From positions 3,603 through 27,602 of the forward strand of contig VGNW01000004.1 of NCBI GenBank assembly GCA_016865955.1: 24,000 nt of DNA, read 5' to 3'. The notes beneath the pieces were generated by a model. The model was not told the origin of the DNA and made no database searches. It saw nothing but the letters and a program-made list of their open reading frames with translations. The stretch comes from Chloroflexota bacterium (lineage in GTDB: Bacteria > Chloroflexota > Dehalococcoidia > SZUA-161). The first letter of the stretch is position 1, and the number at the start of each line of letters is the position of its first letter. Positions 5,179 through 18,827 of this stretch are shown piece after piece. Made by a program: the position numbers and the translations under genes.

Positions 5179-5225
5179 AATGCCTTGCTACCTTTTGAGA
5201 CCTTGTGTAAAATAGCGCGGGAGGC

Positions 5226-6098
5226 ATGATGAAGATTCGCAAAGCGGTGGTCACTGCGGCGGGCTGGGGCACCAGGTTCCTGCCTGCAACCAAGGCGCAG
5301 CCCAAGGAGATGCTGCCGCTGGTCGATAAGCCCATGATTCAATACGTGGTGGAGGAGGCTGTCGCTTCCGGTATTAAGCAAATCATCATCGTTACCGCCC
5401 TCGGCAAACGCGCCATCGAAGATCATTTCGACCGCTCTTTCGAATTGGAATATGCCCTAAAGCAGAAGGGCAGCAGCGAGCTTCTGGAGAAGGTTCAGCA
5501 GACAATGGAGCTTGCCAATATTAGCTATATCCGCCAGAAAGAGCAGCTCGGTCTGGGACATGCTGTTCTGACCGCCAAGGAACTCATCGGCGACGAGCCG
5601 TTCGCCTTGTTCCTCCCCGACGATATCATCGAGTCTAAAATACCTGCCATGAAGCAGATGCTCGGGGTGTACGACCGCTACGGCAGCAGCGTCATTGCAG
5701 TTCAGACCATAGCGCCCGAGGAAAGCAAGGCGTACGGCGTGATAGCGCCCAGGCAGGTGGAGAAGCGTATATATCAGGTATTGAGCCTGGTGGAAAAGCC
5801 CGAGCCTGAAGACGCACCATCGAATCTGGGCATAGTGGGCAGGTACATTCTCACGCCCGAAATATTCGACATGCTGGAGAAAACCACGCCGGGCAAGGGC
5901 GGGGAAATTCAGCTTACCGACGGTCTGAGGCTGCTGTTGAAGAAGCAGAAGATATACGCCTACCAGTTCCAGGGGACCCGCCACGATACAGGCACGCCGC
6001 TGGGTTTCCTGAAGGCATCGGTGGAGTTCGCCCTCAAGCGACCTGACCTCGGCCCCAGGTTCAAAGAATACCTGCAACAGCTCAATCTAAGCAACTGA
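5226..6098 (+). CDS. galU: UTP--glucose-1-phosphate uridylyltransferase
   Basis: AAGWGTRFLPATKAQPKEMLPLVDKPMIQYVVEEA is the nucleotidyltransferase signature G-x-G-T-R-x-L-P-x-T-K. SD GGGAGG is at 5219-5224. The start is ATG 5226 or the adjacent ATG 5229. Confidence 0.9.
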   Translation: MMKIRKAVVTAAGWGTRFLPATKAQPKEMLPLVDKPMIQYVVEEAVASGIKQIIIVTALGKRAIEDHFDRSFELEYALKQKGSSELLEKVQQTMELANISYIRQKEQLGLGHAVLTAKELIGDEPFALFLPDDIIESKIPAMKQMLGVYDRYGSSVIAVQTIAPEESKAYGVIAPRQVEKRIYQVLSLVEKPEPEDAPSNLGIVGRYILTPEIFDMLEKTTPGKGGEIQLTDGLRLLLKKQKIYAYQFQGTRHDTGTPLGFLKASVEFALKRPDLGPRFKEYLQQLNLSN

Positions 6099-6120
6099 GC
6101 TTCCAAATTCCGAGCCCCAA

Positions 6121-6155
6121 GCTGATTGCTAATAGCTGACTGCTTATGGCTGACC
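6121..6155. repeat. Heptad micro-repeat array (5 x 7 nt, GCTnAnn)
   Basis: GCTGATT GCTAATA GCTGACT GCTTATG GCTGACC, starting 23 nt downstream of the galU stop. It has the same 7-nt periodicity and CTGA core as 3946-3980. Confidence 0.8.
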
Positions 6156-6206
6156 GTTTCTTTCCAGATAAGGAAGTATAGTCAAGGAATAGGAATATAC
6201 GTTATG

Positions 6207-6235
6207 TTGACTTTCAGAGTGAAGTTTCCTAGATT
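6207..6235 (+). promoter_or_regulatory. Candidate sigma70-type promoter for the small membrane-protein gene
   Basis: TTGACT (6207-6212), a 17-nt spacer, then TAGATT (6230-6235), in an AT-rich intergenic region about 80 nt upstream of ATG 6314. Sequence match only. Confidence 0.4.
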
Positions 6236-6313
6236 ATTATCAGGGACAGTACTTCGGTTTTCTATCAAAGTACTAAAGTTTACCGAACAACCTTGGAGGC
6301 ATCGAGGGTTAAG

Positions 6314-6652
6314 ATGTTCATAAGGGCAACAAAAGCCAGACAACTGAACGCAGTAAAGTTAGCCAGGGTTTTAACTGTAGTCTGGGTCACGTTATCTCTG
6401 GCTGAGGCCAGCGTCACATACCTCTGTCTGAGAAGCGCTGAAAACATCGAGGGGAATCCCTTCGCCAGAATGCTGCTGTCTCACAACGAGGTACTGTTCT
6501 ACGGAGCAAAGCTGCTGGTCACAGCGGCCATCGGATGGGGGCTGTGGTGGCTGGCAACAAGGACGCCTCATATAAAGCTTCTACTGGCATGCCAGATATT
6601 GCTGGTGGCGATGTTTGCAGGTGTCTTCATAAATAATCTGTTTCATCTCTGA
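6314..6652 (+). CDS. Small integral membrane protein, DUF5658-like (E-x-N-P motif family)
   Basis: I preferred ATG 6314 (GAGGG upstream) over the ORF-track TTG 6293. There are three to four hydrophobic helices. VTYLCLRSAENIEGNPFARML resembles the conserved 'T...g..E.NP' loop of that family. It is convergent with the end of the archaellum operon. Confidence 0.5.
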   Translation: MFIRATKARQLNAVKLARVLTVVWVTLSLAEASVTYLCLRSAENIEGNPFARMLLSHNEVLFYGAKLLVTAAIGWGLWWLATRTPHIKLLLACQILLVAMFAGVFINNLFHL

Positions 6653-6689: not shown

Positions 6690-7346
6690 CTAGGAAGATT
6701 CGCTCTGCCCGCCTCTGATTTTCGCCACAATCTTTTTCCCTTCCTCCAGCAAGGAATATATGCTCATATCGCTCAGATCTTCTGAAATAGCTCCAAGCGT
6801 ACCCGTTTCATCCTGCTCGCTCCTGAAAACGTCCAGCAGACTATCGGTATCTTTATCTCCGGCTCCTTTTGGTTTTTCTGCCGACGGCTGGTTCGCTGAT
6901 GCGGCATTCTGATTGACTGCCTCAAGCGCCTGCGGCTTGTCTTCGGCTTTCGCTGGTTCTTCGGTAGCCTTATTTGCCGGCTGAGATTCCTCTGTTTTCG
7001 CCGCAACAGTCGCGGCGACAGGGAACTCCTCCGTCTTTTTCTCCGCAACGCCCGGTTCGTTCAATTTCTGCCCGTCGCCCACCTTGTCAATGGCGACTAA
7101 TTCAACTTTCTCCTCTTTTCCCTCATTAGCGGCTGTCGCTACAGCAGGCTGCGCCGTTTCACCATCAGCTTGCTGCTCTTTATTTTCCTCTTCCTCGCAA
7201 ACAGTTAAGCCGTTATTCTTCCTGTCGAGGAACTCTCCGACAGGGTCTTCCTCGAGAGGTACCAATTCCCTGCCCCCGAAGAAGGACTCCTTGAAGAATT
7301 GCCAGGGTCGGCTGATTGCCGACCCGATCCATTCTATCATCTTCAT
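6690..7346 (-). CDS. Acidic, low-complexity (E/K/A/P-rich) protein of unknown function, last gene of the archaellum operon
   Basis: ATG 7346 lies 6 nt after SD GGGAGG (7353-7358), which directly abuts the arlJ stop (TAA 7359-7361), implying translational coupling. There is no TM segment or signal peptide. A structured-looking N-terminus (MKMIEWIGSAISRPWQFFKESFF) and C-terminus (DSLLDVFRSEQDE...MSIYSLLEEGKKIVAKI) flank a roughly 130-aa disordered linker. No family was recognised. Confidence 0.6.
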   Translation of the reverse strand: MKMIEWIGSAISRPWQFFKESFFGGRELVPLEEDPVGEFLDRKNNGLTVCEEEENKEQQADGETAQPAVATAANEGKEEKVELVAIDKVGDGQKLNEPGVAEKKTEEFPVAATVAAKTEESQPANKATEEPAKAEDKPQALEAVNQNAASANQPSAEKPKGAGDKDTDSLLDVFRSEQDETGTLGAISEDLSDMSIYSLLEEGKKIVAKIRGGQSESS

Positions 7347-7358
7347 TCTATACCTCCC

Positions 7359-8861
7359 TTAACTCACAGCGGGTATCGAGGAAAATATCTTACTCGCCGC
7401 TATAGGAACAAATACCAATGCTGCGCCCGATAGGCTCAGGGTTACGCCCAGATAGACGAAAAGCTTGAATCTGTTGCCGCCGTCAGCAGCCTTGATAGCA
7501 AAGGCATTAGCGCCAGCCATGACCAGGATGACAGGTAATACAAGGGTGCCGAGTATGTGGACGTTCTCAAAACTGAAGCCAAAAACATCCAGCACCCCCG
7601 AAGGGGCACCTTCAACTGCCTGCGTATAGACGCCTTCGACTGTTTTCGAGAAGATATTTAATACCTGTACCACAAATAACAGTAAGGCAACAAGGGCAGC
7701 GTGCATTCCCAGCACCAGCAGTACGAATGACGAAGATACCTGCCCTCTCTTGGCACGGAGAAAATCCAGACTCATCGCAATCAAAGAAGAGCGACCCCCG
7801 ACCTCCTCGGGGTCGCCTCCCAGCCTAGTGGCATCATGGAACATCTTCACGCTCCGGTATATCGTTTCGCTCCCCGTCTCCACTGAAAAGCGCTGCCAGC
7901 AAAGCTCGGGCCTGAGTCTCGAAATCAGTCTGCTGCGCAGACGCTTCACATCGCCGGATAGATTTGCCGTTGATCTGAGGTCCAGCCTGTCCAATGCGTT
8001 AGATACCGTAATCCCGATCGCAGAGGCAACATTGCCCAGCGACCTCAAAAATGTGCTGATATCCGTATCCTTCTTGGTGACCTGGCGGTCGAAGATGAGG
8101 CCGGCTACGCCAACAGGGAGCATTAATACCCCCGCTACCATAAGCCCCCATCCCAGCCCCGCTCCTATTAGCACTAAAACAAAGAAAGCGGCTACAGCTA
8201 TGGGAAGCAAAATGCCCGCAAGCTGACGCGCCCTGCGGTGAGCAGGACAGTACAAAGACTGGTTATGAACCCGCACCTCCTTGGGCGAGACCCTGTAAAT
8301 AGCCCACGCCCCCAGAATCGAAACCATTATAGTTACTCCTACCAGAGCTACAGTAATACCTATGGCTACAGGGTATATAAGCATAGAGATAGCAGCCACC
8401 ATGACAATCAAGGCTGCCGAAACAATAAGGGCGGCGTATGCCTCCGTCCACTTCCTCAGCGATTCCACCCCGCGTTCGTACTCGTTCTTGAACGCCTCAG
8501 CCTGGATTTTCGCTTCCTGCGCCAGGAATTCAGATTCGGGTTCACCGGAGCCCAGCGAGCTGGACAGGCGCAGCAAAAGACTTTTCACCGATTCCTCTTT
8601 TGCCGATTCTCCTACAATGCGACATGCCACAGCGTAGTCATATCGCATCTGCTTGCACAGCAGATTGATTTCGGCGAAATAACGTGATGAACTGCACGGC
8701 AGTTGAGCGGCAAACTCGAATATCTGGCTGCGCGGCAGCCCTGCAGCAGCTATAGAGGACATATACGATAGCTGGTAGAACAGGTCATATCCCAGGTAAT
8801 CGCCATTAATATTAGAAGATTCTTTCCTGCTGCGCTTTGGCCAGAACTTTGAGAAGTTCAT
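7359..8861 (-). CDS. arlJ: Archaellum membrane platform protein ArlJ (FlaJ; T2SS-F-like polytopic protein)
   Basis: The N-terminus DLFYQLSYMSSIAAAGLPRSQIFEFAA is typical of FlaJ. Two cytoplasmic T2SF-like domains are each followed by TM clusters. The gene sits immediately after arlI. ATG 8861 (AAGGAG 12 nt upstream) overlaps the arlI 3' end by 50 nt. Confidence 0.85.
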   Translation of the reverse strand: MNFSKFWPKRSRKESSNINGDYLGYDLFYQLSYMSSIAAAGLPRSQIFEFAAQLPCSSSRYFAEINLLCKQMRYDYAVACRIVGESAKEESVKSLLLRLSSSLGSGEPESEFLAQEAKIQAEAFKNEYERGVESLRKWTEAYAALIVSAALIVMVAAISMLIYPVAIGITVALVGVTIMVSILGAWAIYRVSPKEVRVHNQSLYCPAHRRARQLAGILLPIAVAAFFVLVLIGAGLGWGLMVAGVLMLPVGVAGLIFDRQVTKKDTDISTFLRSLGNVASAIGITVSNALDRLDLRSTANLSGDVKRLRSRLISRLRPELCWQRFSVETGSETIYRSVKMFHDATRLGGDPEEVGGRSSLIAMSLDFLRAKRGQVSSSFVLLVLGMHAALVALLLFVVQVLNIFSKTVEGVYTQAVEGAPSGVLDVFGFSFENVHILGTLVLPVILVMAGANAFAIKAADGGNRFKLFVYLGVTLSLSGAALVFVPIAASKIFSSIPAVS

Positions 8862-10563
8862 AAAAATCGCGCACTCCTTTTTCCTTATGCAGTTTTTCCA
8901 GAATCCTTGCCCTGCGCTCCACCAAGCTGTAAATCTGCCATTTCTTGTCCGGAGGATAGCCTCGTTTGATGGCTATCTTGTCCTCCAGTAAATAGCTGTT
9001 CCTTCTGCCCACGAACTCAAAGGTATCTGTTGCAGGGTTCCAGCGAAACACCTCTACATAGGAGAAGATATTTGATACCGGGTCATAACCGACTATTTCA
9101 CTGATGCTCGTCGCCCTACGACCTGCCTTCCCGTTAGGCAGCTTCACAGCGTTCTGGCATACCACTACATTCAAATTGTCCATGTATGTCTTCGGGACAT
9201 TAATTGGATGGCCCGTAAGTCGCTGAATCAGCTTCTCCACATTCGAGGCATGGAACGTGCTCATCACCTCATGGCCGGTCTGCATGGCGCCAAAGGCGAT
9301 ATTGCCCTCCTCGCCTCTAATCTCACCGACGATTATCACGTTGGGGCGCTGTCTCAGGGCAGCCTTCAACAGGTCGAACATGGTTACCTGAGCCCCCTTC
9401 TCCCCCTGCCCCGGTGCTCTGGACACCTCACGCAGCCAGTTGCCATGAGGCACCTGAAGCTCCGGCGTGTCTTCAATACTGACAATCTTGTGGCTCAGCG
9501 GTATAAACGTGGTGATGGCATTCAACAGCGTGGTTTTACCTGAGGCAGTTTCACCGACCACAAACAGGTTCATGCCGTCCTCTATTACAACGGAAAGATA
9601 AGCCGCCATCTCATAACTTATGCTGCCGAACTCGACGAGTTCCAGAATGCTCAGCGGCGTATCGGAGAATTTCCTGATGGTGAAGTTGCTGCCGCGCCGG
9701 GAGACCTCTCTGCCGAAGACTATGTTTATACGAGAGCCGTCGGGAAGCGTGGCGTCGACTATAGGATTACGCAGCGTGACCGGCCTTTTTATCTGCTCGG
9801 ACAATCGGAGCACGAAATCGTCCAGGTCGTCGTGCGTCTCAAAGGTTATCGCCGACCTGAGACCTTTGAAAATCTTGTGCTCCAGAAATATGGGGCCCAG
9901 CCCGCTGCAACTGATGTCCTCTATATTAGGGTCACGAATCATCGTATCTATAGTACCCATGCCCACCTTATCTCTGATGACTACATATTTCAGGGCATCG
10001 AACTGCTCCGGGGTGACCTGTACCTTGGTTTTGTTGCTCTTGCCGTTGCTTTCGCCTCCTTTGGCAACTTTGACGCTGGACGATGATTGGCTGGTGCCGT
10101 TTTTCTGCACAATGCACACCTTATCCAGCATCTTCAGAATGGCTTCCTTCCTTTCCGCATCGGATTCCGCTTCTTTAAGGCTTCCCGCAACATCGACCAG
10201 CCCACTTTCCACCTCTGACAGCACCTTGGTCAAATCCATAGTCAGGCTCGGCTCAATCGGGATATAGTAGGGTCTTCCCCCTCCCGGCTCCGAATAAACA
10301 TGAATGAATAGATTTTCCGAAACGGGATAAATGATGTTTTTCTGTGGTAAATCTGACTGCGCCCGCGTGAGCTTGAGACAATACTGCGGTGCGCCGACCT
10401 TGTCGATAGGAATCATGCGTAAATAGTTCAGCAGATGCTTGCTTTGCTTGCAAGCCTCCTGCATGGGCTCGGGCAGCAATTTGAGGAGTTCCTCTTCAGC
10501 CATACTGGTCTGAGAGGACTCCCCTTCTCCCTGATTCAGAAAGGGCAGTACTATCTTGGGCAT
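8812..10563 (-). CDS. arlI: Archaellum motor ATPase ArlI (FlaI; type II/IV secretion ATPase superfamily)
   Basis: Motifs present: Walker A GETASGKTTLLNA, Asp box DATLPDGSRINIV, IEDTPEL, Walker B RQRPNVIIVGEIRGEE, His box TGHEVMSTFHA. The length and N-terminal domain are typical of FlaI rather than PilB/TadA. Confidence 0.93.
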   Translation of the reverse strand: MPKIVLPFLNQGEGESSQTSMAEEELLKLLPEPMQEACKQSKHLLNYLRMIPIDKVGAPQYCLKLTRAQSDLPQKNIIYPVSENLFIHVYSEPGGGRPYYIPIEPSLTMDLTKVLSEVESGLVDVAGSLKEAESDAERKEAILKMLDKVCIVQKNGTSQSSSSVKVAKGGESNGKSNKTKVQVTPEQFDALKYVVIRDKVGMGTIDTMIRDPNIEDISCSGLGPIFLEHKIFKGLRSAITFETHDDLDDFVLRLSEQIKRPVTLRNPIVDATLPDGSRINIVFGREVSRRGSNFTIRKFSDTPLSILELVEFGSISYEMAAYLSVVIEDGMNLFVVGETASGKTTLLNAITTFIPLSHKIVSIEDTPELQVPHGNWLREVSRAPGQGEKGAQVTMFDLLKAALRQRPNVIIVGEIRGEEGNIAFGAMQTGHEVMSTFHASNVEKLIQRLTGHPINVPKTYMDNLNVVVCQNAVKLPNGKAGRRATSISEIVGYDPVSNIFSYVEVFRWNPATDTFEFVGRRNSYLLEDKIAIKRGYPPDKKWQIYSLVERRARILEKLHKEKGVRDFYELLKVLAKAQQERIF

Positions 10564-10574
10564 GGCAATCCCTA

Positions 10575-11285
10575 CTAAGCTCTAGCCTTGGAATAGGGTA
10601 TAACTCTGATACCCCAGTTCGGTTCGACATCGAAAGAAATGATATTGCCCGTGTTCATCTCAGCACCGCGTACCTTAGCCACCTCAAGTATCTTCATCAT
10701 CTTGCTTCCCATAGTTTCGATGCGCAGTCTGAGATGGGCGTCGCACATCGACCCCAGTCTGACCATAACGTTCTCGTCAAAGGCATAGGAGTGGGCTACG
10801 CAAATGACCCCCATCCCCCTGCCGGTAAGCGCTTTGCACTCCTCGAAGAAAGAGAGAACCTGTTCTATAGTGGCATGAGTCACATAGTACGTAAGGGAAT
10901 CTATCACTGCCAGGTCTACGCCCTTGCCGGCACAACTGGTCAGCAGAGGCAGCAGCCCTGTATGCAGGCACCGCCTCGTCTTCTTGGTATCGATAGGGTA
11001 TATCCACAGTTTAGAAAGGAGAAAATAGTCCGTTATATCCAGATTAAGGCTCTGCATCTGAGTGACAAAGCTCTTCACCGTATTCTCCGTGGTGAAGACA
11101 ACAGCACTGCACCCTTTCTTAAGAGAACCCCAGAGCATCTGCTGTGTAAGTACGGATTTGCCCGAATCCGGTTGTCCTTCTACCAGACTCAGCGTGCCCA
11201 GCGGTATGCCGCCGCCTATCTTCTTGTCCAGCTCATCGTTGCCGGTAGATATTATCTTGAAATCATTGCCTGCGCCTGTCTTCAT
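10575..11285 (-). CDS. arlH: Archaellum KaiC/RecA-like ATP-binding protein ArlH (FlaH)
   Basis: LDKKIGGGIPLGTLSLVEGQPDSGKSVLTQQ is a KaiC-like Walker A context. DLAVIDSL is Walker B-like. The size is about 236 aa. The gene lies directly upstream of arlI. SD AGGAGG precedes ATG 11285. Confidence 0.85.
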   Translation of the reverse strand: MKTGAGNDFKIISTGNDELDKKIGGGIPLGTLSLVEGQPDSGKSVLTQQMLWGSLKKGCSAVVFTTENTVKSFVTQMQSLNLDITDYFLLSKLWIYPIDTKKTRRCLHTGLLPLLTSCAGKGVDLAVIDSLTYYVTHATIEQVLSFFEECKALTGRGMGVICVAHSYAFDENVMVRLGSMCDAHLRLRIETMGSKMMKILEVAKVRGAEMNTGNIISFDVEPNWGIRVIPYSKARA

Positions 11286-11303
11286 CTTAATCCTCCTGAC
11301 CTT

Positions 11304-11828
11304 CTAGCCTTGAAATTGCGCCGATGTATTTACACCGTTAAAAGTCGAAATCGATACCAGATTCGTAGTCCCGTTGCCCGTCTGCGGAGACAGTTTGAGC
11401 TTGAGCTGCGCTACCTCCCCCTGATTCAATATGCCGGGCTCGTAGACTTCGCCCTGAGTCATGCCCTGGTCGGAATATATCGTGTTTACCGTCCATTCGT
11501 TATCTCCCGGATCGCTGTTGTCCGTATGTGCAAGTCTCCTTATGTAATAGTCACCGTTTGCATCGTAATACTGCACCAGCACATCCCAGTCAGCGAACTG
11601 GGCAAGACGCACCTCGCCGCTGTTATGAACTGCAACTTCAACATTGGCTCCCTGTTTTTGTGCGTCCAGTATTGAGATATCGGTCCTGTTGACCTCCTGA
11701 GTTGTCTGCGCCATCTGTTTCAATGACTGCGACACAGAATCAAATGACGAGAAAGCGGCCTGTGACCAAGTCAAAGCCGCTATTATCATCAAAGCTATAA
11801 CAAATAGAGCGACTATTGCATTGCTCAT
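11304..11828 (-). CDS. arlG: Archaellum accessory protein, ArlG (FlaG)-like (assigned by position)
   Basis: A single N-terminal TM helix (IVALFVIALMIIAALTW) is followed by a beta-rich domain of about 140 aa, which is the ArlF/ArlG architecture. It is the second of two such genes between arlC/D/E and arlH. The F-versus-G assignment rests on euryarchaeal gene order only. Confidence 0.6.
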   Translation of the reverse strand: MSNAIVALFVIALMIIAALTWSQAAFSSFDSVSQSLKQMAQTTQEVNRTDISILDAQKQGANVEVAVHNSGEVRLAQFADWDVLVQYYDANGDYYIRRLAHTDNSDPGDNEWTVNTIYSDQGMTQGEVYEPGILNQGEVAQLKLKLSPQTGNGTTNLVSISTFNGVNTSAQFQG

Positions 11829-11833
11829 TGTTC

Positions 11834-12349
11834 CTACATACTGAAATAGTATTCGTCAGAGACCCCGTTGGGGATAAGGACCTTGATACGGTACTCCCCG
11901 GATGAAAGAGCGCTCTCATAGCTAATCTCAATCCTTGTGGTGGTCGCTATGCCCCACTCCGTGCCATTCTCTATTTCATAATCCCACTGGGGATATTCAC
12001 CAATGGCATAGTAGTTATGGGGAATCCACGCCCATACTGTCTGGTCGCCATTAAGGAAAACATCGCAGCGTTTGACATCTACTACCTCTTCAGTGCCTAT
12101 GTTCTTCACCCATACGAAAACATCGAAGTATCCGTTGGAATTCGTATCCTGCCAGACGCCGTTACTGTCCAGCTCTCCGGTGGCATGTATTATGTCAATC
12201 TGGCTCTTTATCCGCTCGTTCATCCGCGCCGAAACGCTGCTCAATGCCCCGCTTGAGCTGGTGATAGCCGGATACACAGCGTTAATCACCAGGGTCACGC
12301 AAATTACTGCTGCAACCACAAGCAAAATGGTGCTCAGCACCTTATCCAT
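11834..12349 (-). CDS. arlF: Archaellum accessory protein, ArlF (FlaF)-like (assigned by position)
   Basis: An N-terminal TM helix (LSTILLVVAAVICVTLVINAVY) is followed by a beta-rich, aromatic-rich domain (VWVKNIG...WAWIPHNYYAIGEYPQWDYEIENGTEWG). There is a 3-nt gap after the arlC/D/E-like gene and a 5-nt gap before arlG. Confidence 0.6.
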   Translation of the reverse strand: MDKVLSTILLVVAAVICVTLVINAVYPAITSSSGALSSVSARMNERIKSQIDIIHATGELDSNGVWQDTNSNGYFDVFVWVKNIGTEEVVDVKRCDVFLNGDQTVWAWIPHNYYAIGEYPQWDYEIENGTEWGIATTTRIEISYESALSSGEYRIKVLIPNGVSDEYYFSM

Positions 12350-12352
12350 CGT

Positions 12353-13000
12353 CTACCCGCCTTTTTTATAGAACTGACCTTTTTCAAGGAGCATTGACAG
12401 CACAACCGACTCAAGAGCGCCGGTTCGATAACGGAGAAGGCTATCGAGCTCAATCAGCAACTGCATGCTGACCGACGCCGGCACATCCTCAGATTCATCC
12501 CTGTCGCTATTGGCATACAAATCTGCAAGCAACAGAATTGCCTGCTTCAGACGTGGCGGCAGGTTGCCTGTTATATCGTAAATTTCAACCAGCTTGGTTA
12601 TCTGCTCTTTGCTTACGGTTGCGGCAGCCCGGGATAACCATTGTGACAACACAGATACCGTAAGCAAGTCCACCCGGCCCTCGCTGTCAGTTTTAGCGCC
12701 CGCGATACCGGTTTCAGGAACACGCCCCACATCGCGTGCTGAAGCCTCAATCTTCTCAGCAGCCGGGCTAACAGTCTCCGGAGCCTCCGGCTCAGCCGTT
12801 TTAGGAGCCCCGCGCACAACCTTGACCACATTATTCTCCGGCTGAGCAGATGAGGGAACAGTGTTCGCCCAGGGCGGAGCAGAGGACGCCTGTATACCAC
12901 CGGTGGCAAGTTGCTCCTTGATATCCAGGAGGACTGCCCTTATCTGATTCTTCAGCACCTTAAACTCTTCTTCCAGATTCTTAATTTTTTGCTCTTCCAT
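12353..13000 (-). CDS. ArlC/D/E (FlaC/D/E)-family archaellum motor-accessory protein
   Basis: It has an N-terminal coiled coil (EEQKIKNLEEEFKVLKNQIRAVLLDIKEQL, FlaC-like), then a P/A/E-rich linker. The C-terminal block DLLTVSVLSQWLSRAAATVSKEQITKLVEIYDITGNLPPRLKQAILLLADL resembles the conserved FlaD/E domain pattern (..a..kWlefL....G...l..vL.yYe.iGWi....). It occupies the euryarchaeal position between the archaellins and arlF. Confidence 0.65.
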   Translation of the reverse strand: MEEQKIKNLEEEFKVLKNQIRAVLLDIKEQLATGGIQASSAPPWANTVPSSAQPENNVVKVVRGAPKTAEPEAPETVSPAAEKIEASARDVGRVPETGIAGAKTDSEGRVDLLTVSVLSQWLSRAAATVSKEQITKLVEIYDITGNLPPRLKQAILLLADLYANSDRDESEDVPASVSMQLLIELDSLLRYRTGALESVVLSMLLEKGQFYKKGG

Positions 13001-13026
13001 GCTGCCACCCTCTTTAATTTACCATT

Positions 13027-13073
13027 GAGGTCGCTGACGGGGCGGGGGTCGCCGCCCCCTTGTCAGCGACCTC
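13027..13073 (-). promoter_or_regulatory. GC-rich intercistronic stem-loop between the archaellin genes and the accessory genes (attenuator / mRNA-stabiliser candidate)
   Basis: GAGGTCGCTGAC (13027-13038) pairs with GTCAGCGACCTC (13062-13073). GGGGCGG (13039-13045) pairs with CCGCCCC (13052-13058). That gives 19 bp, with a 3-nt bulge and a 6-nt loop. On the transcribed (minus) strand no U-tract follows it (AAUGGUAAAUUAAAG), so it is not a canonical intrinsic terminator. Confidence 0.5.
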
Positions 13074-13098
13074 TTAACATTTTTCGCCCACTCCTGTA

Positions 13099-13596
13099 CT
13101 AGTTAAGGTCCATTACAGCGTCGATCCTGGCAGGCAGAGTTCTTTCAATTACCAGAACTGCGCCCGTCGGAGGCTTCACTGAGATGGTGAAGGTGTCATA
13201 CGGGCCCGGCGGGGTGGTTAGCCCGGTCAGGTCAACCGTAATCACAGCCTGTTCGTCCATCTCCAGGAGATTGTCATCATTGTTCATGCCGATGAACTCT
13301 ATGCTCCAATCAATGTCTTCCTCATGCTGATTGGCATCGGTGTAGCTGATAATGGTGACATGGTCTCCGCTGGTCGGCGATAGGTCTATCTTCTGTCCCT
13401 TCAAAGCGTTGGTCAGGGTGAAGACTACCGCCGTTGCTTCCTCGGAGGTGGTGTTGCCGTCGGCGAACACACTCCCCTTGATTTCCATGGAAGCCCTTGC
13501 CTCTTGCAGTCCGGCGTGTATCGCTTCCTGCCCCTTCTGGGAAGAGAATATGCCTGCCGACAACACGGTGTAGGCAAACACAGAGGCTACGACCAC
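13099..13596 (-). CDS. arlB: Archaellin ArlB2 (FlaB paralog). The coordinates give the uninterrupted ORF; the homologous coding sequence continues up to ATG 13686 but is interrupted by an in-frame TAA at 13669-13671
   Basis: It is a paralog of arlB1 over its whole length (…VFAYTVLSAGIFSSQKGQEAIH…TFTISVKPPTGAVLVIERTLPARID). Upstream of GTG 13596 the same frame reads RRDERGITGLETAIILIAF, which is the class III signal-peptide cleavage region. Further upstream the frame reads SD AAGGAGG (13694-13700), ATG 13686, M-L-K-R-L, then TAA. See the findings. Confidence 0.8.
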   Translation of the reverse strand: MVVASVFAYTVLSAGIFSSQKGQEAIHAGLQEARASMEIKGSVFADGNTTSEEATAVVFTLTNALKGQKIDLSPTSGDHVTIISYTDANQHEEDIDWSIEFIGMNNDDNLLEMDEQAVITVDLTGLTTPPGPYDTFTISVKPPTGAVLVIERTLPARIDAVMDLN

Positions 13597-13750
13597 GAAC
13601 GCAATCAGGATGATCGCTGTCTCGAGGCCGGTGATGCCTCTCTCATCCCGGCGCAGGCTCTTGTATAATTATAATCTTTTAAGCATCTTGCTTCCTCCTT
13701 CTCATTTCTTCTTATTGTGTTTATTTGTTTCCGCACCCGTTACGCTGACT

Positions 13751-14359
13751 TTAGTACAGTATCATGTAGTCATCAAGCGCAGCAGGTGTGGTTCTCTCGA
13801 CAACAAGCGCGCTGCCGACGGGAGGCTTAACCTGTATTGTGAAGGTGTGATAGGCGTCCACAGTCTCCCCAACACCGGACAGGTCAACTGTTATCTCGAA
13901 CAGCTCGCCAGCCTCCAGTAGATCGTCACCGTCATCAAGACCCATCGGGCTCGCGGTCCAAGCCAGGTCATCCTGTCTTACATCCTCGCTGGAGTAAGAG
14001 ATAACAACAACGTTGGTGCTGCCATCATCGGCTATGCCATTGCTATCGCCATCGGTCGGTATCGTCAGGTCAATGGCTTCACCGTTCAGAGCGTTGGCCA
14101 CGCAGAACACAAGGTAGTCAACCTGTGTGGCATTACCCTGAGCTACCACATTGCCCTTCATCTCCAACGTCGACCTCGCCTGCTCCAGTCCGGAATGGAT
14201 TGCCTCCTGGCCCTTTTGAGACGAGAAGATACCTGCCGACAACACGGTGTAGGCAAATACCGAGGCTACGACCACGAAGGCAATTAGAATTATCGCCGTC
14301 TCCAGGCCGGTGATGCCTCTCTCATCCCTGCGCATCATCTTTGCAAGTCTTTTCAACAT
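13751..14359 (-). CDS. arlB: Archaellin ArlB1 (FlaB) with class III (type IV pilin-like) signal peptide
   Basis: I moved the start to ATG 14359, which has SD AAGGAGG upstream; the ORF-track start at 14428 adds a non-homologous extension. MLKRLAKMMRRDERG | ITGLETAIILIAFVVVASVFAYTVLSAGIFSSQKGQEAI is the archaellin N-terminus seen in TGLE-type archaellins, with Glu at +5. A beta-rich C-terminal domain follows. Confidence 0.88.
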   Translation of the reverse strand: MLKRLAKMMRRDERGITGLETAIILIAFVVVASVFAYTVLSAGIFSSQKGQEAIHSGLEQARSTLEMKGNVVAQGNATQVDYLVFCVANALNGEAIDLTIPTDGDSNGIADDGSTNVVVISYSSEDVRQDDLAWTASPMGLDDGDDLLEAGELFEITVDLSGVGETVDAYHTFTIQVKPPVGSALVVERTTPAALDDYMILY

Positions 14360-14444
14360 CCTTTCTTCCTCCTTACTCGATTTGGTGCCACTGTCTTTCT
14401 TTCTGGCCTGCTGTGGCTCCGCAGGCAATCGTAAAAGCCATAGG

Positions 14445-14711
14445 TTAGGTTTTGAGCATCCCCATCACCTCCCTCTGGCCTTGACCCATTGGATTTGCTT
14501 CCTTCGCATCGTACAGGAAGGCCAAAACATCTTGTTTACGATATCTCCAGTCGCCGCGTTCTCCCACCTTGAAGGCTGTGAGTTTTCCGCTGCGACTCCA
14601 TCGTCTCACTGAACTGACATGAACCCTGAGATACTCCGCAACTTCATCGCATGTCATGATTGCTTTACCATCCGACCCATACTTTTTAATTTTCCTGGTT
14701 GTCCTATTCAA
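14445..14711 (-). CDS. Excisionase/MerR-superfamily helix-turn-helix DNA-binding protein, first gene of the archaellum transcription unit (candidate regulator)
   Basis: MTCDEVAEYLRVHVSSVRRWSRSGKLTAFKVGERGDWRYRKQDVLAFL fits the excisionase-family HTH pattern (lt..EaA.yL.vs..tv.rw...G.l.a.kvG..wR....dl..fl). TTG 14711 has AGAGGA 7 nt upstream; the alternative start is ATG 14657. It is on the same strand as arlB1 and 85 nt upstream of it. Confidence 0.65.
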   Translation of the reverse strand: MNRTTRKIKKYGSDGKAIMTCDEVAEYLRVHVSSVRRWSRSGKLTAFKVGERGDWRYRKQDVLAFLYDAKEANPMGQGQREVMGMLKT

Positions 14712-15163
14712 ATCGCTGTCCTCTTCGTATCAATGCAACCCTGCGCAGCAATTTCTGTAATCTTTTGTTTCACCGCTATACTTTTCAGCACTAAATTTGC
14801 TTATTCGTACAAACGCGTAATTTTGCGAGCAATGCGAAACATCTGGTAGCAATCCTAACAACCGCGTACAATGGCAACAATCACCAGCCAGTACTAAGGG
14901 AAATAGGTAAATAGTCATGCCTGAAGATGGCATCAAGATTCGATAAAGAAAGCTCTCCGACCCGAAAGAGGCACGAGTGCAGTACTTTTTCCGTCAAGGA
15001 AGATAACATTCCGTATCCTGCCGGAAGATTACGGAGGACAATTCGCAGTCCGCAAAGCTCAAGCCGGGTGTAGTAGCACTTTTGTAGGAGAAAAATACTA
15101 CTAAAAGGTATCCCTGGTACTCTTGCTATCGGGTCGTTAAATGTTTTATCATTGATAATTAGT

Positions 15164-15919
15164 ATGAATAGCGTTATAGAGGAAAAGACAGGGTTGCCGA
15201 GCAACGGCACTATAGAAAGCCTGAAGCTTCGGATTGACGGCTACCAGGCACATTACCTGAAAGCCGGCAGCGGCTCGCCTGTGGTCTTATTGCATGGAGG
15301 AGCCAGCGATTCGGGAGACTGGACGGATACCATGTCCGCTCTTTCCCCATACTATTCTTTATATGCACCAGATATCATAGGCTACGGAAAAAGCGATAAG
15401 AATAAGAGCGGTTACTATCTTACTGAGTTCGTTGACTTCACCCTGGATTTCATAAAAACGCTGGGGCTGAGTTCCATCGCCCTGGTAGGACATTCTCTGG
15501 GCGGGAGGATATGCCTGGATATAGCCCTCCATCACCCTTATACAGTACGCCGGCTCGTCCTTGTCGACACGGTCGGATTCGGCAAACTGGCCTGGTGGGG
15601 CACTTTCCTCGGCGCAGCTGCCTGGGGATTTCGTGAATTCATGGGGCGCCCGCAGCCCTATCCCAAATTCCTCAAGGAAGACACGGAGGACAAAGACTGG
15701 CAGTGCCTGGACAAACTCACCGAATTAAAGGTACCCACGCTGCTTATCTGGAACCGGCGCGACCCCTACTTCTCCGTGAATCACGCCTTCAGAGCTCAGA
15801 AATTAATTCCCGAGGTCAGTCTGGAGATATTCCCCGGCTACGGCCACGCACCCCACATGAAAAACAGGGAACAGTTCAACAACCTTCTGCTGGACTTCCT
15901 CAACCACGAACAGGGATAA
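15164..15919 (+). CDS. Alpha/beta-fold hydrolase
   Basis: The oxyanion-region HGG (VVLLHGGASDSGDW) and the nucleophile elbow GHSLGG are present. A C-terminal GYGHAPH supplies the catalytic His. The start is ATG 15164 or TTG 15152; neither has a clear SD. Confidence 0.8.
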   Translation: MNSVIEEKTGLPSNGTIESLKLRIDGYQAHYLKAGSGSPVVLLHGGASDSGDWTDTMSALSPYYSLYAPDIIGYGKSDKNKSGYYLTEFVDFTLDFIKTLGLSSIALVGHSLGGRICLDIALHHPYTVRRLVLVDTVGFGKLAWWGTFLGAAAWGFREFMGRPQPYPKFLKEDTEDKDWQCLDKLTELKVPTLLIWNRRDPYFSVNHAFRAQKLIPEVSLEIFPGYGHAPHMKNREQFNNLLLDFLNHEQG

Positions 15920-15962
15920 ATCCCCCTCAAACGGAACGCTTGATAGCTTCCATATGCTACAT

Positions 15963-16409
15963 CTAATTCGTCGCGGCTACAACGTAGCGGATGAACAGTC
16001 CGATTCCCGCAGCGAATCCGCTGAAGCCTACTATTGACGCGCAAACGTAAGCCCGGAATCCCTTCGGGCTGGCTCCCGTGAACTTTCTGTGCAAGAAACC
16101 CTGCCACATAAAGAAGGCAGTCGCCAACACGACAAGGGGAAAAAGAAACACGGGCGACCATAAGAAGAGTAGGCCAATGTAACCCTGAGAGCTATATCCT
16201 TTGGAGGAGGTAATTATGGGACGCGACGCCCAGACCAAAACAGGCACAAGCCACCATATTATGAGCATCACAATAGCTACCTTCCCGAAATTGATCCGGG
16301 AGATGCGGTCAAATCTAGTCTGGCACGCGTGACACTTGTAGGTGGTCTTCCGGTCAAGGGAGTCAGGCAATTGGTTCTCCGCCCTGCACTCAGGGCAAAT
16401 GACTTTCAC
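15963..16409 (-). CDS. Zinc-ribbon (CxxC...CxxC) N-terminal domain / 4-TM membrane protein, paralog A
   Basis: I preferred GTG 16409 as the start. SD GGAGG (16418-22) lies 8 nt upstream, and this arrangement is conserved in paralog B. The product begins MKVICPECRAENQLPDSLDRKTTYKCHACQTRF, as is typical for MJ0042-type zinc ribbons. The ORF-track start (GTG 16445) lies inside the predicted promoter spacer. Four hydrophobic helices follow. Confidence 0.7.
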   Translation of the reverse strand: MKVICPECRAENQLPDSLDRKTTYKCHACQTRFDRISRINFGKVAIVMLIIWWLVPVLVWASRPIITSSKGYSSQGYIGLLFLWSPVFLFPLVVLATAFFMWQGFLHRKFTGASPKGFRAYVCASIVGFSGFAAGIGLFIRYVVAATN

Positions 16410-16432
16410 AGGCAAATCCTCCAATCTGCCAT

Positions 16433-16461
16433 ATCGTATCGCCACACATCAGTTACGTCAA
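16433..16461 (-). promoter_or_regulatory. Candidate sigma70-type promoter of paralog A
   Basis: On the minus strand: TTGACG (16461-16456), a 17-nt spacer, then TACGAT (16438-16433), followed by SD GGAGG and GTG 16409. The same architecture is conserved in copy B. Confidence 0.5.
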
Positions 16462-16475
16462 GGAATACATATAGA

Positions 16476-16523: not shown

Positions 16524-16606
16524 CTATGAAAATGATGGGAATCGCTGATTTTGGGCCTCTTCGGAACGCTTGAAAGCTCCCATATGCCACATCTAATTCG
16601 TCGCGG

Positions 16607-18820: not shown

Positions 18821-18827
18821 TCTTTAA

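What the first reader, a model, noticed from the sequence alone, without database searches (positions are those of the whole stretch)
6690..14711. Complete euryarchaeal-type archaellum operon embedded in a bacterial genome context
Seen in sequence: ten co-directional minus-strand genes from 14711 to 6690. From the arlC/D/E-like gene onward they are separated by 3-18 nt gaps or overlap. In order they are an HTH gene, two archaellins with a class III signal peptide (RG|ITGLETAIILIAFVVV), an ArlC/D/E-like protein, two TM-anchored ArlF/G-like proteins, ArlH (GQPDSGKSV), ArlI (GETASGKTT, IIVGEIRGEE, His box), ArlJ, and an unknown acidic ORF. Both flanks on the same contig are bacterial-type housekeeping genes (MiaA, HflX, GalU on one side; IlvC and an S4-RsuA/RluB pseudouridine synthase on the other). 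Established knowledge: ArlB/F/G/H/I/J plus ArlC/D/E is the euryarchaeal motility machine. The order B-C/D/E-F-G-H-I-J is the euryarchaeal order, not the crenarchaeal B-X-G-F-H-I-J. ArlH and ArlC/D/E have no counterparts in bacterial Tad/T4P systems. Inference: a whole archaeal rotary motility organelle was transferred horizontally into a bacterium and kept intact. The conserved catalytic motifs argue that it is still functional. I saw no integrase, transposase or tRNA at the borders, which suggests an old, domesticated acquisition. Caveat: I recall that archaellum-like clusters have been noted in some Chloroflexota, so novelty depends on the lineage. The extra genes at both ends look uncharacterised.
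Basis: partly seen in the sequence, partly recalled or inferred. Interest (0 to 1): 0.9.

Follow-up and report, generated by a model that had tools for sequence, protein, structure and literature searches.

The report
Archaellum operon in a Dehalococcoidia bacterium
This is a real, vertically inherited archaeal-type swimming-motor (archaellum) operon inside a Dehalococcoidia (Chloroflexota) bacterial genome. The phenomenon was already published in 2023-2025, so the locus is a good example and not a discovery.

Summary
All ten minus-strand genes exist at the stated coordinates. They are an HTH gene, two archaellin genes, an ArlD/E-domain gene, arlG, arlF, arlH, arlI, arlJ and an acidic ORF.

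ArlI and ArlH pass NCBI's archaellum model cut-offs. The archaellin best matches a solved "Flagellin" filament, PDB 9i5h.

The window is an NCBI "Chloroflexi bacterium" MAG (FJ004 tags). Cluster and flanks are syntenic in more than 10 independent Dehalococcoidia assemblies, including a complete chromosome. Composition is continuous and dN/dS is 0.05-0.26. This indicates an old, maintained acquisition and excludes a chimera.

- The order is G-F (arl2 type), not F-G.
- arlB2 carries a 6-bp tandem duplication that creates an in-frame TAA at codon 6.
- No prepilin peptidase lies in the window.
- The ArlC/D/E-like protein misses Pfam, but profile-profile comparison shows an ArlD/E domain (93%, P 3.5e-7).

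Archaella in Chloroflexota are published (Lim 2023; Sivabalasarma 2025, which has structure, motility and phylogeny).

Details I did not find described in the papers I read:
- a C-terminal motif protein encoded just after the last core gene (arlJ in most) in 45 of 57 Chloroflexota loci;
- a conserved hairpin after the archaellin genes;
- a hairpin/pseudoknot in the arlB1 leader.

The parts
14445..14711 (-). Small HTH_17 / excisionase-family (MerR/BldC-like) DNA-binding protein. Inferred to be the local transcription regulator of the operon.
   Evidence: Pfam HTH_17 1.5e-13. TIGR01764 2e-10 and BldC subfamily 1e-8, the latter below its cut-off. Found directly upstream of arlB1 in every related locus with ArlI identity of 68% or more that covers that side. 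dN/dS 0.26.
14387..14426 (-). Conserved hairpin in the arlB1 leader (GCCUGC / GCAGGC). Its loop sequence GCCAC is complementary to GUGGC 14 nt downstream, and that segment ends 13 nt before the Shine-Dalgarno sequence. Candidate pseudoknot or regulatory site.
   Evidence: Alignment and per-sequence parsing of 13 loci. The stem shows compensatory changes in L001, L006, L011 and L029, and G.U pairs in L014 and L028. The loop-downstream pairing is kept with different letters in L029 (AAUGCC:GGCAUU). No Rfam family matches. Function not tested.
13751..14359 (-). arlB1: intact archaellin with a class III signal peptide (MLKRLAKMMRRDERG|ITGLE...).
   Evidence: PF01917 8.7e-28. TIGR02537 N-terminal domain. 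Best PDB match is the 'Flagellin' filament 9i5h at 3.4e-38, whose chain starts at ITALETAIILIAF. dN/dS 0.16.
13099..13686 (-). arlB2: second archaellin gene, interrupted by an in-frame TAA (13671-13669) created by a 6-bp tandem duplication (13675-13664). Probably inactive in this genome.
   Evidence: Translation and sequence. The duplication is absent from L001, L003, L004, L006 and L011. It is identical in a separate JGI assembly, L019. The remainder still matches PF01917 at 2e-18.
13027..13073 (-). Strong G+C-rich hairpin (19 bp with a 3-nt bulge) between the last archaellin gene and the accessory genes, with no U-tract. Inferred attenuator or mRNA 3'-end stabiliser that sets a high archaellin-to-motor ratio.
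   Evidence: dG -40.6 kcal/mol, z = -2.9. Present at the same place in related loci. Non-homologous strong hairpins occupy this spacer in many of the more distant Chloroflexota loci. In the outer 12 bp, 99.5% of cells are paired across 17 sequences and 3 pairs changed on both sides.
12353..13000 (-). ArlD/E-domain protein at the 'ArlCDE' position. It has an N-terminal long helix, a disordered linker and a C-terminal four-helix ArlD/E-like domain.
   Evidence: No Pfam or NCBIfam hit. The AF2 model has helix 2-32, a low-confidence (pLDDT < 50) stretch at 36-105 and helices 112-209. hhalign against six archaeal PF04659 domains gives Prob 93%, P 3.5e-7; controls give P >= 0.024. An HMM of the domain picks exactly the six PF04659 proteins out of 305 ORFs from six archaeal loci.
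11834..12349 (-). arlG (stator protein with an N-terminal TM helix).
   Evidence: NCBIfam ArlG 7.2e-12 against ArlF 1e-4, both below cut-off. PF01917 2.4e-9. dN/dS 0.05.
11304..11828 (-). arlF (stator protein with an N-terminal TM helix and an Ig-like domain).
   Evidence: NCBIfam ArlF 1.8e-7 against ArlG 7.6e-5. Pfam FlaF_Ig-like 1.8e-4. PDB 4p94 (FlaF) 1.7e-5.
10575..11285 (-). arlH (KaiC/RecA-like ATP-binding regulator of ArlI).
   Evidence: NF004723 FlaH 267 bits, cut-off 194. PDB 4yds ('Flagella-related protein H') 141 bits; 4wia ('Putative flagella-related protein H') 82 bits.
8812..10563 (-). arlI (motor and assembly ATPase).
   Evidence: NF058587 archaellum FlaI 672 bits, cut-off 550; TadA 155 bits. 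PDB 4ii7 FlaI 435 bits against CpaF 157 bits. Walker A and B motifs read.
7359..8861 (-). arlJ (polytopic membrane platform). Overlaps arlI by 50 nt.
   Evidence: NF004703 ArlJ/FlaJ 1.7e-122, 409 bits, below the 570-bit equivalog cut-off. The only three NCBIfam families matched are ArlJ models. Weak Pfam T2SSF match. The overlap is conserved in relatives.
6690..7346 (-). Post-arlJ acidic, mostly low-confidence (likely disordered) protein. It has a conserved N-terminal DPVGEFL motif and a conserved C-terminal helical motif (..LLDVF..E....L...L.D....LLEE.K.I). Candidate Chloroflexota-specific archaellum accessory protein.
   Evidence: No Pfam, NCBIfam or PDB match. 87 clusters, all hypothetical and all Dehalococcoidia where named. 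AF2 gives confident helices only at 35-44 and 170-211. The C-terminal motif occurs in the ORF starting just after the last of arlH/I/J in 45 of 57 Chloroflexota loci, and there are 61 hits among 5,843 ORFs. There is no hit in six archaeal loci. dN/dS 0.21.

Best explanation
The window comes from a Dehalococcoidia (Chloroflexota) bacterium. It carries an arl2-type archaellum operon, HTH-arlB1-arlB2-arlD/E-like-arlG-arlF-arlH-arlI-arlJ-acidic ORF. By published phylogeny the operon descends from one ancient transfer from euryarchaea (Methanotecta) into Chloroflexota, and it has since been inherited vertically in this lineage.

Inferred mechanism, by homology with archaeal archaella and with the experimentally motile bacterium Litorilinea aerophila:
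- The ArlI hexamer on the ArlJ membrane platform assembles the filament and then rotates it by ATP hydrolysis.
- ArlH modulates ArlI.
- ArlF and ArlG form the envelope-anchored stator.
- The ArlD/E-domain protein forms the cytoplasmic accessory or switch layer.

In this particular genome arlB2 is knocked out by a 6-bp duplication, so the filament would be built from ArlB1 alone.

Additional inferences:
- The hairpin after the archaellin genes tunes the archaellin-to-motor transcript ratio.
- The upstream HTH protein is the local regulator.
- The acidic post-arlJ protein is a lineage-specific accessory factor.

What is shown here: gene identities, synteny, purifying selection, the arlB2 lesion and the conserved RNA structures. 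What is inferred: assembly, rotation and regulation.
For: - **Family assignments:**
- **ArlD/E domain homology:**
- **Taxonomic identity.** The window proteins are 100% identical to NCBI MAG 'Chloroflexi bacterium' FJ004_00470 and FJ004_00500. The nearest genomes are Dehalococcoidia MAGs.
- **Synteny.** Cluster plus flanks are syntenic in L001-L014, including a complete chromosome. The order B-DE-G-F-H-I-J recurs in most of about 80 metagenomic loci.
- **Selection and composition.** dN/dS is 0.05-0.26 for all ten genes against 0.08 for the flanking galU. Composition is continuous across the borders.
- **Literature.**
  - Archaellum loci were found in 243 of 3,780 Chloroflexota genomes, with arlGF order and arlCDE homologues.
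  - A cryo-EM filament structure and swimming were reported for L. aerophila.
  - The clade is sister to the Methanotecta arl2 clade.
  - 40 of 212 Dehalococcoidia genomes carry flaB.
Against: - arlB2 is disrupted in this genome.
- No class III signal peptidase and no che genes lie in the 24 kb.
- ArlJ, ArlF and ArlG score below NCBIfam equivalog cut-offs.
- Cultivated SAR202 strains that carry such clusters showed no archaella or motility in culture. Expression in this uncultured organism is therefore unproven.
- My own ArlI tree lacked a usable bacterial outgroup and any arl2 archaeal sequences. The donor lineage therefore rests on the published phylogeny alone.
Confidence: 0.88

Rival explanations
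1. The operon is a maintained but non-swimming or decaying system in this lineage. It could be an adhesion or surface filament, or a relic that has started to lose genes, and not a working rotary motor.
For: - arlB2 carries a premature stop in this population, seen in two assemblies.
- SAR202 isolates with archaellum clusters showed no archaella and were described as non-motile.
- L. aerophila itself was long described as non-motile.
Against: - Every gene, including the stator (arlF, arlG), arlH and the ArlD/E-like gene, is under purifying selection at dN/dS 0.05-0.14. These genes matter for rotation as well as assembly.
- arlB1 is intact.
- Relatives keep both archaellin genes intact.
- L. 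aerophila swims once it is induced on soft agar.
Confidence: 0.09
2. The junction between an archaeal cluster and bacterial flanks is an assembly or binning chimera.
For: The source is a metagenome-assembled genome. No read-level data could be inspected.
Against: - The same cluster sits between the same flanking genes (dapF, hflX, galU and a DUF5658 gene on one side; an alpha/beta hydrolase and a radical SAM gene on the other) in more than 10 independent assemblies.
- These include the complete chromosome CP070819.1 and a 1.75-Mb contig.
- Tetranucleotide and GC3 continuity holds across both borders.
Confidence: 0.01
3. It is a bacterial Tad or type IV pilus system, or an archaeal-type non-rotating pilus, misread as an archaellum.
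For: - ArlI and ArlJ belong to the same superfamilies as TadA/PilB and TadBC/PilC.
- Pfam reports only T2SSE and a weak T2SSF match.
- The literature reports a second, pilus-like archaeal T4P transfer into two Anaerolineales genomes.
Against: - The FlaI equivalog is passed at 672 bits against a 550-bit cut-off, while TadA scores 155 bits against a 373-bit cut-off.
- The archaellum-specific parts are all present: ArlH, ArlF and ArlG, and an ArlD/E domain.
- The archaellin is closest to a solved 'Flagellin' filament, 9i5h.
Confidence: 0.01

Closest known systems
Chloroflexota archaellum loci; model organism Litorilinea aerophila (Sivabalasarma et al., Nat Microbiol 2025, PMC12488501; filament entry probably PDB 9i5h)
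   Same: - The gene set and order are the same: arlB - arlCDE-like - arlG - arlF - arlH - arlI - arlJ.
- The host phylum is the same.
- The window archaellin's best PDB match is 9i5h at 3.4e-38, with a near-identical mature N-terminus. I assume 9i5h is the L. aerophila filament; the PDB table labels it only 'Flagellin'.
- The signal peptidase lies outside the locus in both.
- CheF is reported absent from Chloroflexota.
   Different: - The host class differs: Dehalococcoidia here, Caldilineae there.
- No pilN or pilO/LysM genes lie next to this cluster.
- This clade has an HTH_17 gene upstream and an acidic ORF after arlJ, which the paper does not discuss.
- arlB2 is interrupted here.
- No experimental data exist for this organism.
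SAR202 'Candidatus Lucifugimonas marina' archaellum cluster (Lim et al., Nat Commun 2023, PMC10444878)
   Same: - The host class is also Dehalococcoidia.
- flaB copies are followed by flaGFHIJ.
- Heliorhodopsin genes are in the same genome, as in this window.
   Different: - SAR202 has six tandem flaB copies.
- Loci that may be SAR202-type in my sample have the order B-G-F-J-DE-H-I (L063, L094, L096, L097, L101, L105). That label is my guess.
- The window has two arlB genes and the B-DE-G-F-H-I-J order.
Archaeal arl2-type archaellum clusters (e.g. Sulfolobus acidocaldarius arlB-X-G-F-H-I-J; arl2 clusters of Archaeoglobus and other Methanotecta)
   Same: - arlG comes before arlF.
- Among solved structures, the closest matches for ArlI (4ii7), ArlH (4yds) and ArlF (4p94) are entries I know to be from S. 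acidocaldarius; the PDB tables give no organism.
- The published tree places the Chloroflexota clade as sister to Methanotecta arl2 loci.
   Different: - The host is bacterial.
- An ArlD/E-domain protein occupies the ArlX position.
- The extra HTH and acidic genes are present.
- ArlI is only about 41% identical to the arl1-type euryarchaeal ArlI proteins I could fetch.
Euryarchaeal arl1 clusters (Methanococcus and Methanocaldococcus flaB-C-D-E-F-G-H-I-J)
   Same: The parts list is the same. The C-terminal domain of the window's 215-aa protein is a remote homologue of the FlaD/FlaE domain PF04659.
   Different: - F and G are in the opposite order.
- One fused DE-like gene replaces the separate FlaC, FlaD and FlaE genes.
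- Pfam PF04659 and PF05377 do not detect the bacterial protein.
- EarA-type regulator genes lie beside the archaeal loci. Here a bacterial-type HTH gene sits upstream.
Bacterial Tad (Flp) pilus
   Same: It is also a type IV filament system of archaeal ancestry, with a TadA-like ATPase and a TadBC-like platform.
   Different: - The Tad system has no ArlH, ArlF/G or ArlD/E parts.
- There are no Flp pilins here.
- The TadA model is scored far below its cut-off.
- The Tad pilus is not rotary.

Membership tests
Archaellum (arl/fla) machinery | Filament protein: archaellin with a class III signal peptide and the PF01917 domain | tested here: met
   arlB1 matches PF01917 at 8.7e-28 and TIGR02537. The cleavage motif RG|ITGLE aligns with the first residue of the filament chain 9i5h. 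arlB2 has the same sequence but is interrupted by TAA.
Archaellum (arl/fla) machinery | ArlI/FlaI-type motor ATPase, distinct from TadA, PilB and GspE | tested here: met
   NF058587 672 bits, above the 550-bit cut-off. TadA scores 155 bits, below its 373-bit cut-off. PDB FlaI 435 bits against CpaF 157 bits.
Archaellum (arl/fla) machinery | ArlJ/FlaJ membrane platform | tested here: inconclusive
   Best hit is NF004703 at 1.7e-122 and 409 bits, below the 570-bit equivalog cut-off. The only three NCBIfam families matched are ArlJ models. This is clearly the ArlJ family, but the curated threshold is not reached.
Archaellum (arl/fla) machinery | ArlH/FlaH KaiC-like protein (absent from bacterial T4P and Tad systems) | tested here: met
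   NF004723 267 bits, above the 194-bit cut-off. PDB 4yds at 3e-40.
Archaellum (arl/fla) machinery | ArlF and ArlG stator proteins | tested here: met
   There are reciprocal best NCBIfam matches, ArlG 7e-12 and ArlF 2e-7, both below cut-off. Pfam FlaF_Ig-like matches at 1.8e-4. PDB FlaF 4p94 matches at 1.7e-5. ArlG has no PDB sequence match.
Archaellum (arl/fla) machinery | ArlC/D/E (or ArlX) cytoplasmic accessory protein | tested here: met
   PF04659 and PF05377 are not detected directly. Profile-profile comparison of the C-terminal domain with six archaeal PF04659 domains gives Prob 93%, P 3.5e-7. The reversed control gives P 0.22 and the best of 30 shuffled controls gives P 0.024. An HMM retrieves only the six PF04659 proteins from the archaeal loci. 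An ArlC-like N-terminus was not established (P 0.017).
Archaellum (arl/fla) machinery | Class III signal peptidase (PibD/ArlK/PilD) available to process archaellin | not testable with these tools
   None of the window ORFs I scanned has a Peptidase_A24 match. The literature says it lies outside the locus in Chloroflexota. The rest of the genome could not be read.
Archaellum (arl/fla) machinery | ATP-driven rotation and swimming | not testable with these tools
   Shown experimentally only for L. aerophila.
   The upstream gene 11834-12349 is ArlG-like and the downstream gene 11304-11828 is ArlF-like.
arl2 locus type | arlG upstream of arlF, followed by arlH-I-J | tested here: met
   The same order is seen in most of the related loci surveyed and in the literature.
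Bacterial Tad/Flp or type IV pilus | TadA/PilB-type ATPase at equivalog level and a Flp or type IV pilin | tested here: not met
   TadA 155 bits against a 373-bit cut-off. PilB 59 bits against a 676-bit cut-off. The pilin-like genes are PF01917 archaellins.
Published Chloroflexota archaellum clade | Chloroflexota genomic context with the arlB-arlCDE-arlG-arlF-arlH-arlI-arlJ cluster | tested here: met
   The source names the window's proteins 'Chloroflexi bacterium', and the nearest genomes are named Dehalococcoidia. Order. Whether this MAG is among the 243 genomes of the paper could not be verified: 'FJ004' is not found in the held supplements.

The most novel reading that the evidence does not exclude
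The acidic, largely disordered protein encoded immediately after the last core gene (arlJ in most loci; here 6690-7346) is a bacterial addition to the archaellum. Its conserved C-terminal helical motif has the consensus DLLDLF..E.....L..LA.ELPDVDIQDLL.EL..I. It may serve as the adaptor that replaces the missing archaeal CheF, linking bacterial CheY or another signal to the ArlD/E-ArlH-ArlI motor. Alternatively it may tether the motor to the bacterial envelope.

The motif is found at that position in 45 of 57 Chloroflexota loci, sometimes behind a TM anchor or as tandem paralogues. It was not found in six archaeal (arl1-type) loci. arl2-type archaeal loci, the presumed donors, could not be checked.
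Probability: 0.12. Interest if true: 0.7.

Novelty: already known. Interest (0 to 1): 0.3.

Why it matters
The headline, a whole archaeal rotary motility machine working inside bacteria, was a real surprise. It has since been reported.
- Hug 2013 is cited as the first report, from a MAG.
- Lim 2023 described it in SAR202 isolates and found flaB in 40 of 212 Dehalococcoidia genomes.
- Sivabalasarma 2025 surveyed 243 genomes and reported a 2.7-Å filament structure, swimming and a phylogeny.

This locus therefore adds a clean Dehalococcoidia example and not a new phenomenon.

Its remaining value lies in details that I did not find described in the papers I read:
- a widely conserved post-arlJ motif protein, which is a concrete candidate for how a bacterial cell couples signalling or its envelope to an archaeal motor;
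- conserved RNA structures that probably set archaellin-to-motor expression;
- a natural arlB2 knock-out allele;
- the fact that standard Pfam and NCBIfam models miss the bacterial ArlD/E-like, ArlF and ArlG proteins, so automatic annotation leaves these clusters as 'hypothetical'.

Tried and rejected
- **Direct library searches on the ArlC/D/E-like protein.** Pfam and NCBIfam gave nothing for it or for ten remote relatives, even at E <= 5-10.
- **Structure-based searches on that protein.** A profile search of PDB sequences found nothing. A Foldseek search of the AF2 model against the PDB gave no hit at E <= 0.001. The AlphaFold-database libraries were not available.
- **Single-sequence hhalign against archaeal FlaC, FlaD and FlaE.** Scores were only weak (P 0.014-0.29), although the same region always aligned. 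The question was resolved only with diversified profiles.
- **N-terminal helix against FlaC_arch.** Not significant (P 0.017, 22 columns). 74 of 137 family members do carry an NPF motif after the helix, as archaeal FlaC does. I left this as unproven.
- **NJ tree of ArlI.** Uninformative. The only bacterial outgroup was a 46-aa fragment, and all the archaeal sequences I could fetch were arl1-type.
- **Names for remote relatives.** Cluster look-ups gave no names. Their contigs proved to be further bacterial archaellum loci and not archaeal ones.
- **Promoter and terminator consensus scans.** No more sites than in shuffled sequence.
- **tRNA and Rfam.** Nothing found.
- **Acidic ORF.** No PDB sequence match. 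The AF2 model is mostly low confidence, so I ran no fold search on it.
- **Sigma-54 promoter reading of the conserved GTGGCA element upstream of arlB1.** I considered this and rejected it by eye, because there is no -12 GC element.
- **Chimeric assembly and Tad-pilus readings.** Rejected; see the rival explanations.

Full report
**1. Observation.**
The window has ten co-directional minus-strand ORFs between 14711 and 6690. The quoted motifs are in the translations: ArlH GQPDSGKSV, ArlI GETASGKTT and IIVGEIRGEE, and archaellin RG|ITGLETAIILIAFVVV.

The flanks are bacterial housekeeping genes.
- On the low-coordinate side (1-6652) lie the MiaA C-terminus, a PNPOx-family protein, DapF, a class I/II aminotransferase, HflX, GalU and a DUF5658 membrane protein.
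- On the high-coordinate side (14712-24000) lie an alpha/beta hydrolase, two zinc-ribbon membrane proteins, a B12-radical SAM enzyme, a heliorhodopsin, a thioesterase, IlvC, an MBL-fold RNase and, running off the end, an S4-RsuA/RluB pseudouridine synthase.
- There is no tRNA and no Rfam family. None of the flank ORFs I scanned against Pfam is an integrase or transposase.

**2. Gene identities.**

| Gene | Evidence |
|---|---|
| ArlI | NCBIfam archaellum FlaI equivalog 672 bits (cut-off 550); TadA 155, PilB 59 |
| ArlI | PDB FlaI 4ii7 435 bits; CpaF 157 |
| ArlH | FlaH model 267 bits (cut-off 194); PDB 4yds 141 bits, 4wia 82 bits |
| ArlJ | ArlJ/FlaJ model 1.7e-122, 409 bits, below the 570-bit cut-off; no other family type matched |
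| Both archaellins | PF01917 |
| arlB1 | best solved relative is the 'Flagellin' filament 9i5h at 3.4e-38 |

I take 9i5h to be the bacterial archaellum filament of the 2025 paper. Its chain begins ITALETAIILIAF, which places signal-peptide cleavage after RG.

**3. Correction of the gene order.**
The upstream TM-anchored gene (11834-12349) scores best as ArlG (7e-12 against 1e-4 for ArlF). The downstream gene (11304-11828) scores best as ArlF (2e-7 against 8e-5). It also matches Pfam FlaF_Ig-like and the FlaF structure 4p94 at 1.7e-5. It matches what Sivabalasarma et al. report for Chloroflexota.

**4. The ArlC/D/E-like protein (12353-13000).**
- It has no Pfam or NCBIfam match.
- Its family has 854 representatives at E <= 0.001 in the representative library.
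- Ten remote members were equally unannotated.
- The five I looked up sit at the same position in other archaellum loci; where flanking genes were visible (L023) the context is bacterial.
- AF2 gives an N-terminal helix (2-32), a low-confidence linker and a C-terminal four-helix domain (112-209).
- To test homology I obtained archaeal loci through the FlaH structure 4wia. I know 4wia to be from Methanocaldococcus jannaschii, and its closest relatives in the search are Methanocaldococcus proteins.
- From those loci I extracted six PF04659 (Arch_fla_DE) proteins.
- A 134-sequence profile of the bacterial C-terminal domain aligns to the archaeal DE domain over 84 columns with Prob 93% and P 3.5e-7.
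- A reversed template gives P 0.22, and the best of 30 column-shuffled templates gives P 0.024.
- An HMM of the bacterial domain, run against all 305 ORFs of the six archaeal loci, retrieves exactly the six PF04659 proteins (E 1.5e-8 to 1.5e-3; the next hit is at 0.24).

An ArlC-like N-terminus remains unproven.

**5. Host and authenticity.**
Two window proteins are 100% identical to NCBI MAG "Chloroflexi bacterium" FJ004_00500 and FJ004_00470. The closest species-representative genomes are Dehalococcoidia MAGs, with ArlI identity of 93% to 67%.

The complete arrangement is:
- dapF - orf - aminotransferase - hflX - galU - DUF5658 gene,
- then acidic ORF - arlJ - I - H - F - G - DE - B2 - B1 - HTH,
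- then hydrolase - rSAM - heliorhodopsin.

It recurs in more than 10 independent assemblies, including the complete chromosome CP070819.1 and a 1.75-Mb contig. Tetranucleotide correlation between cluster and flanks (0.88-0.90) equals the flank-to-flank value (0.895), and GC3 values overlap.

Against the 93%-identical relative L001, dN/dS is 0.05-0.26 for all ten genes, compared with 0.08 for galU. This excludes a chimera. It supports an old, vertically inherited acquisition that is maintained by selection.

**6. What is not intact.**
arlB2 starts at ATG 13686 but carries a tandem duplication of ATTATA (13675-13664). This turns TTA-TAC into TTA-TAA-TTA-TAC, a stop at codon 6. Five relatives lack the duplication. 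A separately assembled JGI contig (L019) has it identically, so it is probably a real allele and not an assembly error. The next canonical start (GTG 13596) would remove the signal peptide and the start of the assembly helix. arlB1 is intact. No prepilin peptidase and no chemotaxis genes lie in the window.

**7. Extra genes.**
*The HTH gene.* It belongs to the HTH_17 / excisionase family and is MerR/BldC-like. It is conserved directly upstream of arlB1 in the close clade.

*The acidic ORF.*
- It has 87 clusters, all hypothetical, and all Dehalococcoidia where named.
- AF2 gives mostly low confidence, with a short conserved N-terminal helix (DPVGEFL) and conserved C-terminal helices.
- An iterated HMM of the C-terminal ~45-60 residues (consensus ...DLLDLF..E.....L..LA.ELPDVDIQDLL.EL..I...) finds 61 ORFs among 5,843 in the fetched bacterial loci.
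- In 45 of the 57 loci with at least 700 nt after the last of arlH/I/J, the hit ORF starts within about 340 nt downstream on the same strand. These include divergent loci with REC-ArlH fusions and loci with the alternative gene order.
- Some versions carry TM helices, and some loci have two tandem paralogues.
- No hit occurs in the six archaeal loci. All six are arl1-type, and arl2 archaea could not be checked.
- The Chloroflexota archaellum papers I searched do not mention such a gene.

**8. Cis elements.**
*Hairpin after the archaellin genes.* A 47-nt G+C-rich hairpin (13027-13073; dG -40.6 kcal/mol, z = -2.9) lies between arlB2 and the DE gene. It is conserved in the clade, with compensatory changes: 99.5% of cells paired in the outer 12 bp across 17 sequences, and three pairs changed on both sides. 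Unrelated but equally strong hairpins occupy the same spacer in many of the more distant loci. It lacks a U-tract. I infer an attenuator or 3'-end stabiliser that favours archaellin mRNA.

*Element in the arlB1 leader (14387-14426).* A 6-9-bp hairpin has a loop (U)GCCAC that is complementary to GUGGC(A) 8-14 nt downstream. In most loci that segment ends 11-13 nt before the Shine-Dalgarno sequence. Stem changes are compensatory in four loci, and L029 keeps the loop-downstream pairing with different letters. Its function was not tested.

**9. Comparison with the literature.**
- Lim et al. 2023 found archaellum clusters in SAR202 isolates, and flaB in 40 of 212 Dehalococcoidia genomes. They also found heliorhodopsins. 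They saw no archaella in culture.
- Sivabalasarma et al. 2025 found archaellum loci in 243 of 3,780 Chloroflexota genomes, with arlGF order and arlCDE homologues, and with the peptidase encoded elsewhere.
- The same paper showed swimming and a 2.7-Å filament structure for L. aerophila.
- It placed the Chloroflexota clade next to Methanotecta arl2 loci. It noted that CheF is missing and that another adaptor may exist.
- The finding is therefore a correct rediscovery.

**10. Verdict.**
Interest is low to moderate. It rests on three things: the unreported post-arlJ motif protein, the conserved RNA structures and the annotation gap.

Noticed in passing
window 13664-13686 (minus strand): A 6-bp tandem duplication, ATTATA|ATTATA, creates an in-frame TAA at codon 6 of arlB2. 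It is absent from five relatives and identical in a separate JGI contig (L019).
   Followed up: yes
window 13027-13073 (minus strand); same spacer in L001-L035 and many of the more distant loci: A very stable G+C-rich hairpin without a U-tract lies between the last archaellin gene and the ArlD/E-like gene. It is conserved with compensatory changes. Non-homologous strong hairpins occupy the same place in distant Chloroflexota archaellum loci.
   Followed up: yes
window 14387-14426 (minus strand), between the HTH stop and the arlB1 start: A conserved hairpin has a loop (GCCAC) complementary to GUGGC shortly upstream of the Shine-Dalgarno sequence. The stem, and in L029 the loop-downstream pairing, show covariation. 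It could be a pseudoknot or an operator. No Rfam family matches.
   Followed up: partly
window 6690-7346; ORFs just after arlJ in L015, L022, L023, L029-L034, L040-L104: The C-terminal motif of the acidic ORF is found in the gene immediately after the archaellum core genes in 45 of 57 Chloroflexota loci. Some versions have N-terminal TM helices, and some loci have two tandem paralogues (L040, L045, L050, L051, L057, L061). It is absent from six archaeal arl1 loci.
   Followed up: partly
L058 3944-5014, L060 6841-7911, L067 3523-4584: A variant set of loci encodes a roughly 355-aa ArlH whose N-terminal extension reads, by eye, like a response-regulator receiver domain; I ran no domain search on it. 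Downstream follow arlI, arlJ, a motif-bearing ORF and an ORF whose N-terminus resembles PilD-type prepilin peptidases. No arlB, arlF or arlG genes were recognised upstream.
   Followed up: no
L012 10001-11743 and 11816-13564 (complete chromosome CP070819.1): Two full-length tandem arlI genes, each about 65-67% identical to the window ArlI, lie in one otherwise syntenic operon.
   Followed up: no
L063, L094, L096, L097, L101, L105: An alternative gene order, arlB-G-F-J-DE-H-I, occurs in a subset of loci. They may be SAR202-like; that label is a guess.
   Followed up: no
window 18828-19637 (minus strand) and 17228-18757 (plus strand): A heliorhodopsin gene (PF18761, 2.6e-78) lies next to a B12-binding radical SAM gene, about 4 kb from the archaellum operon. 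This neighbourhood is conserved in several relatives (L003, L006, L010). Heliorhodopsins are also reported in SAR202.
   Followed up: partly
window 15963-16445 and 16607-17071 (minus strand): Two neighbouring ORFs have similar sets of weak zinc-ribbon Pfam matches at their N-termini, so they look paralogous. Function unknown.
   Followed up: no
window 1806-2726 (plus strand): A 306-aa ORF between dapF and the aminotransferase gene has no Pfam match. It is conserved in relatives at 65-74% identity, and its start overlaps the end of dapF.
   Followed up: no
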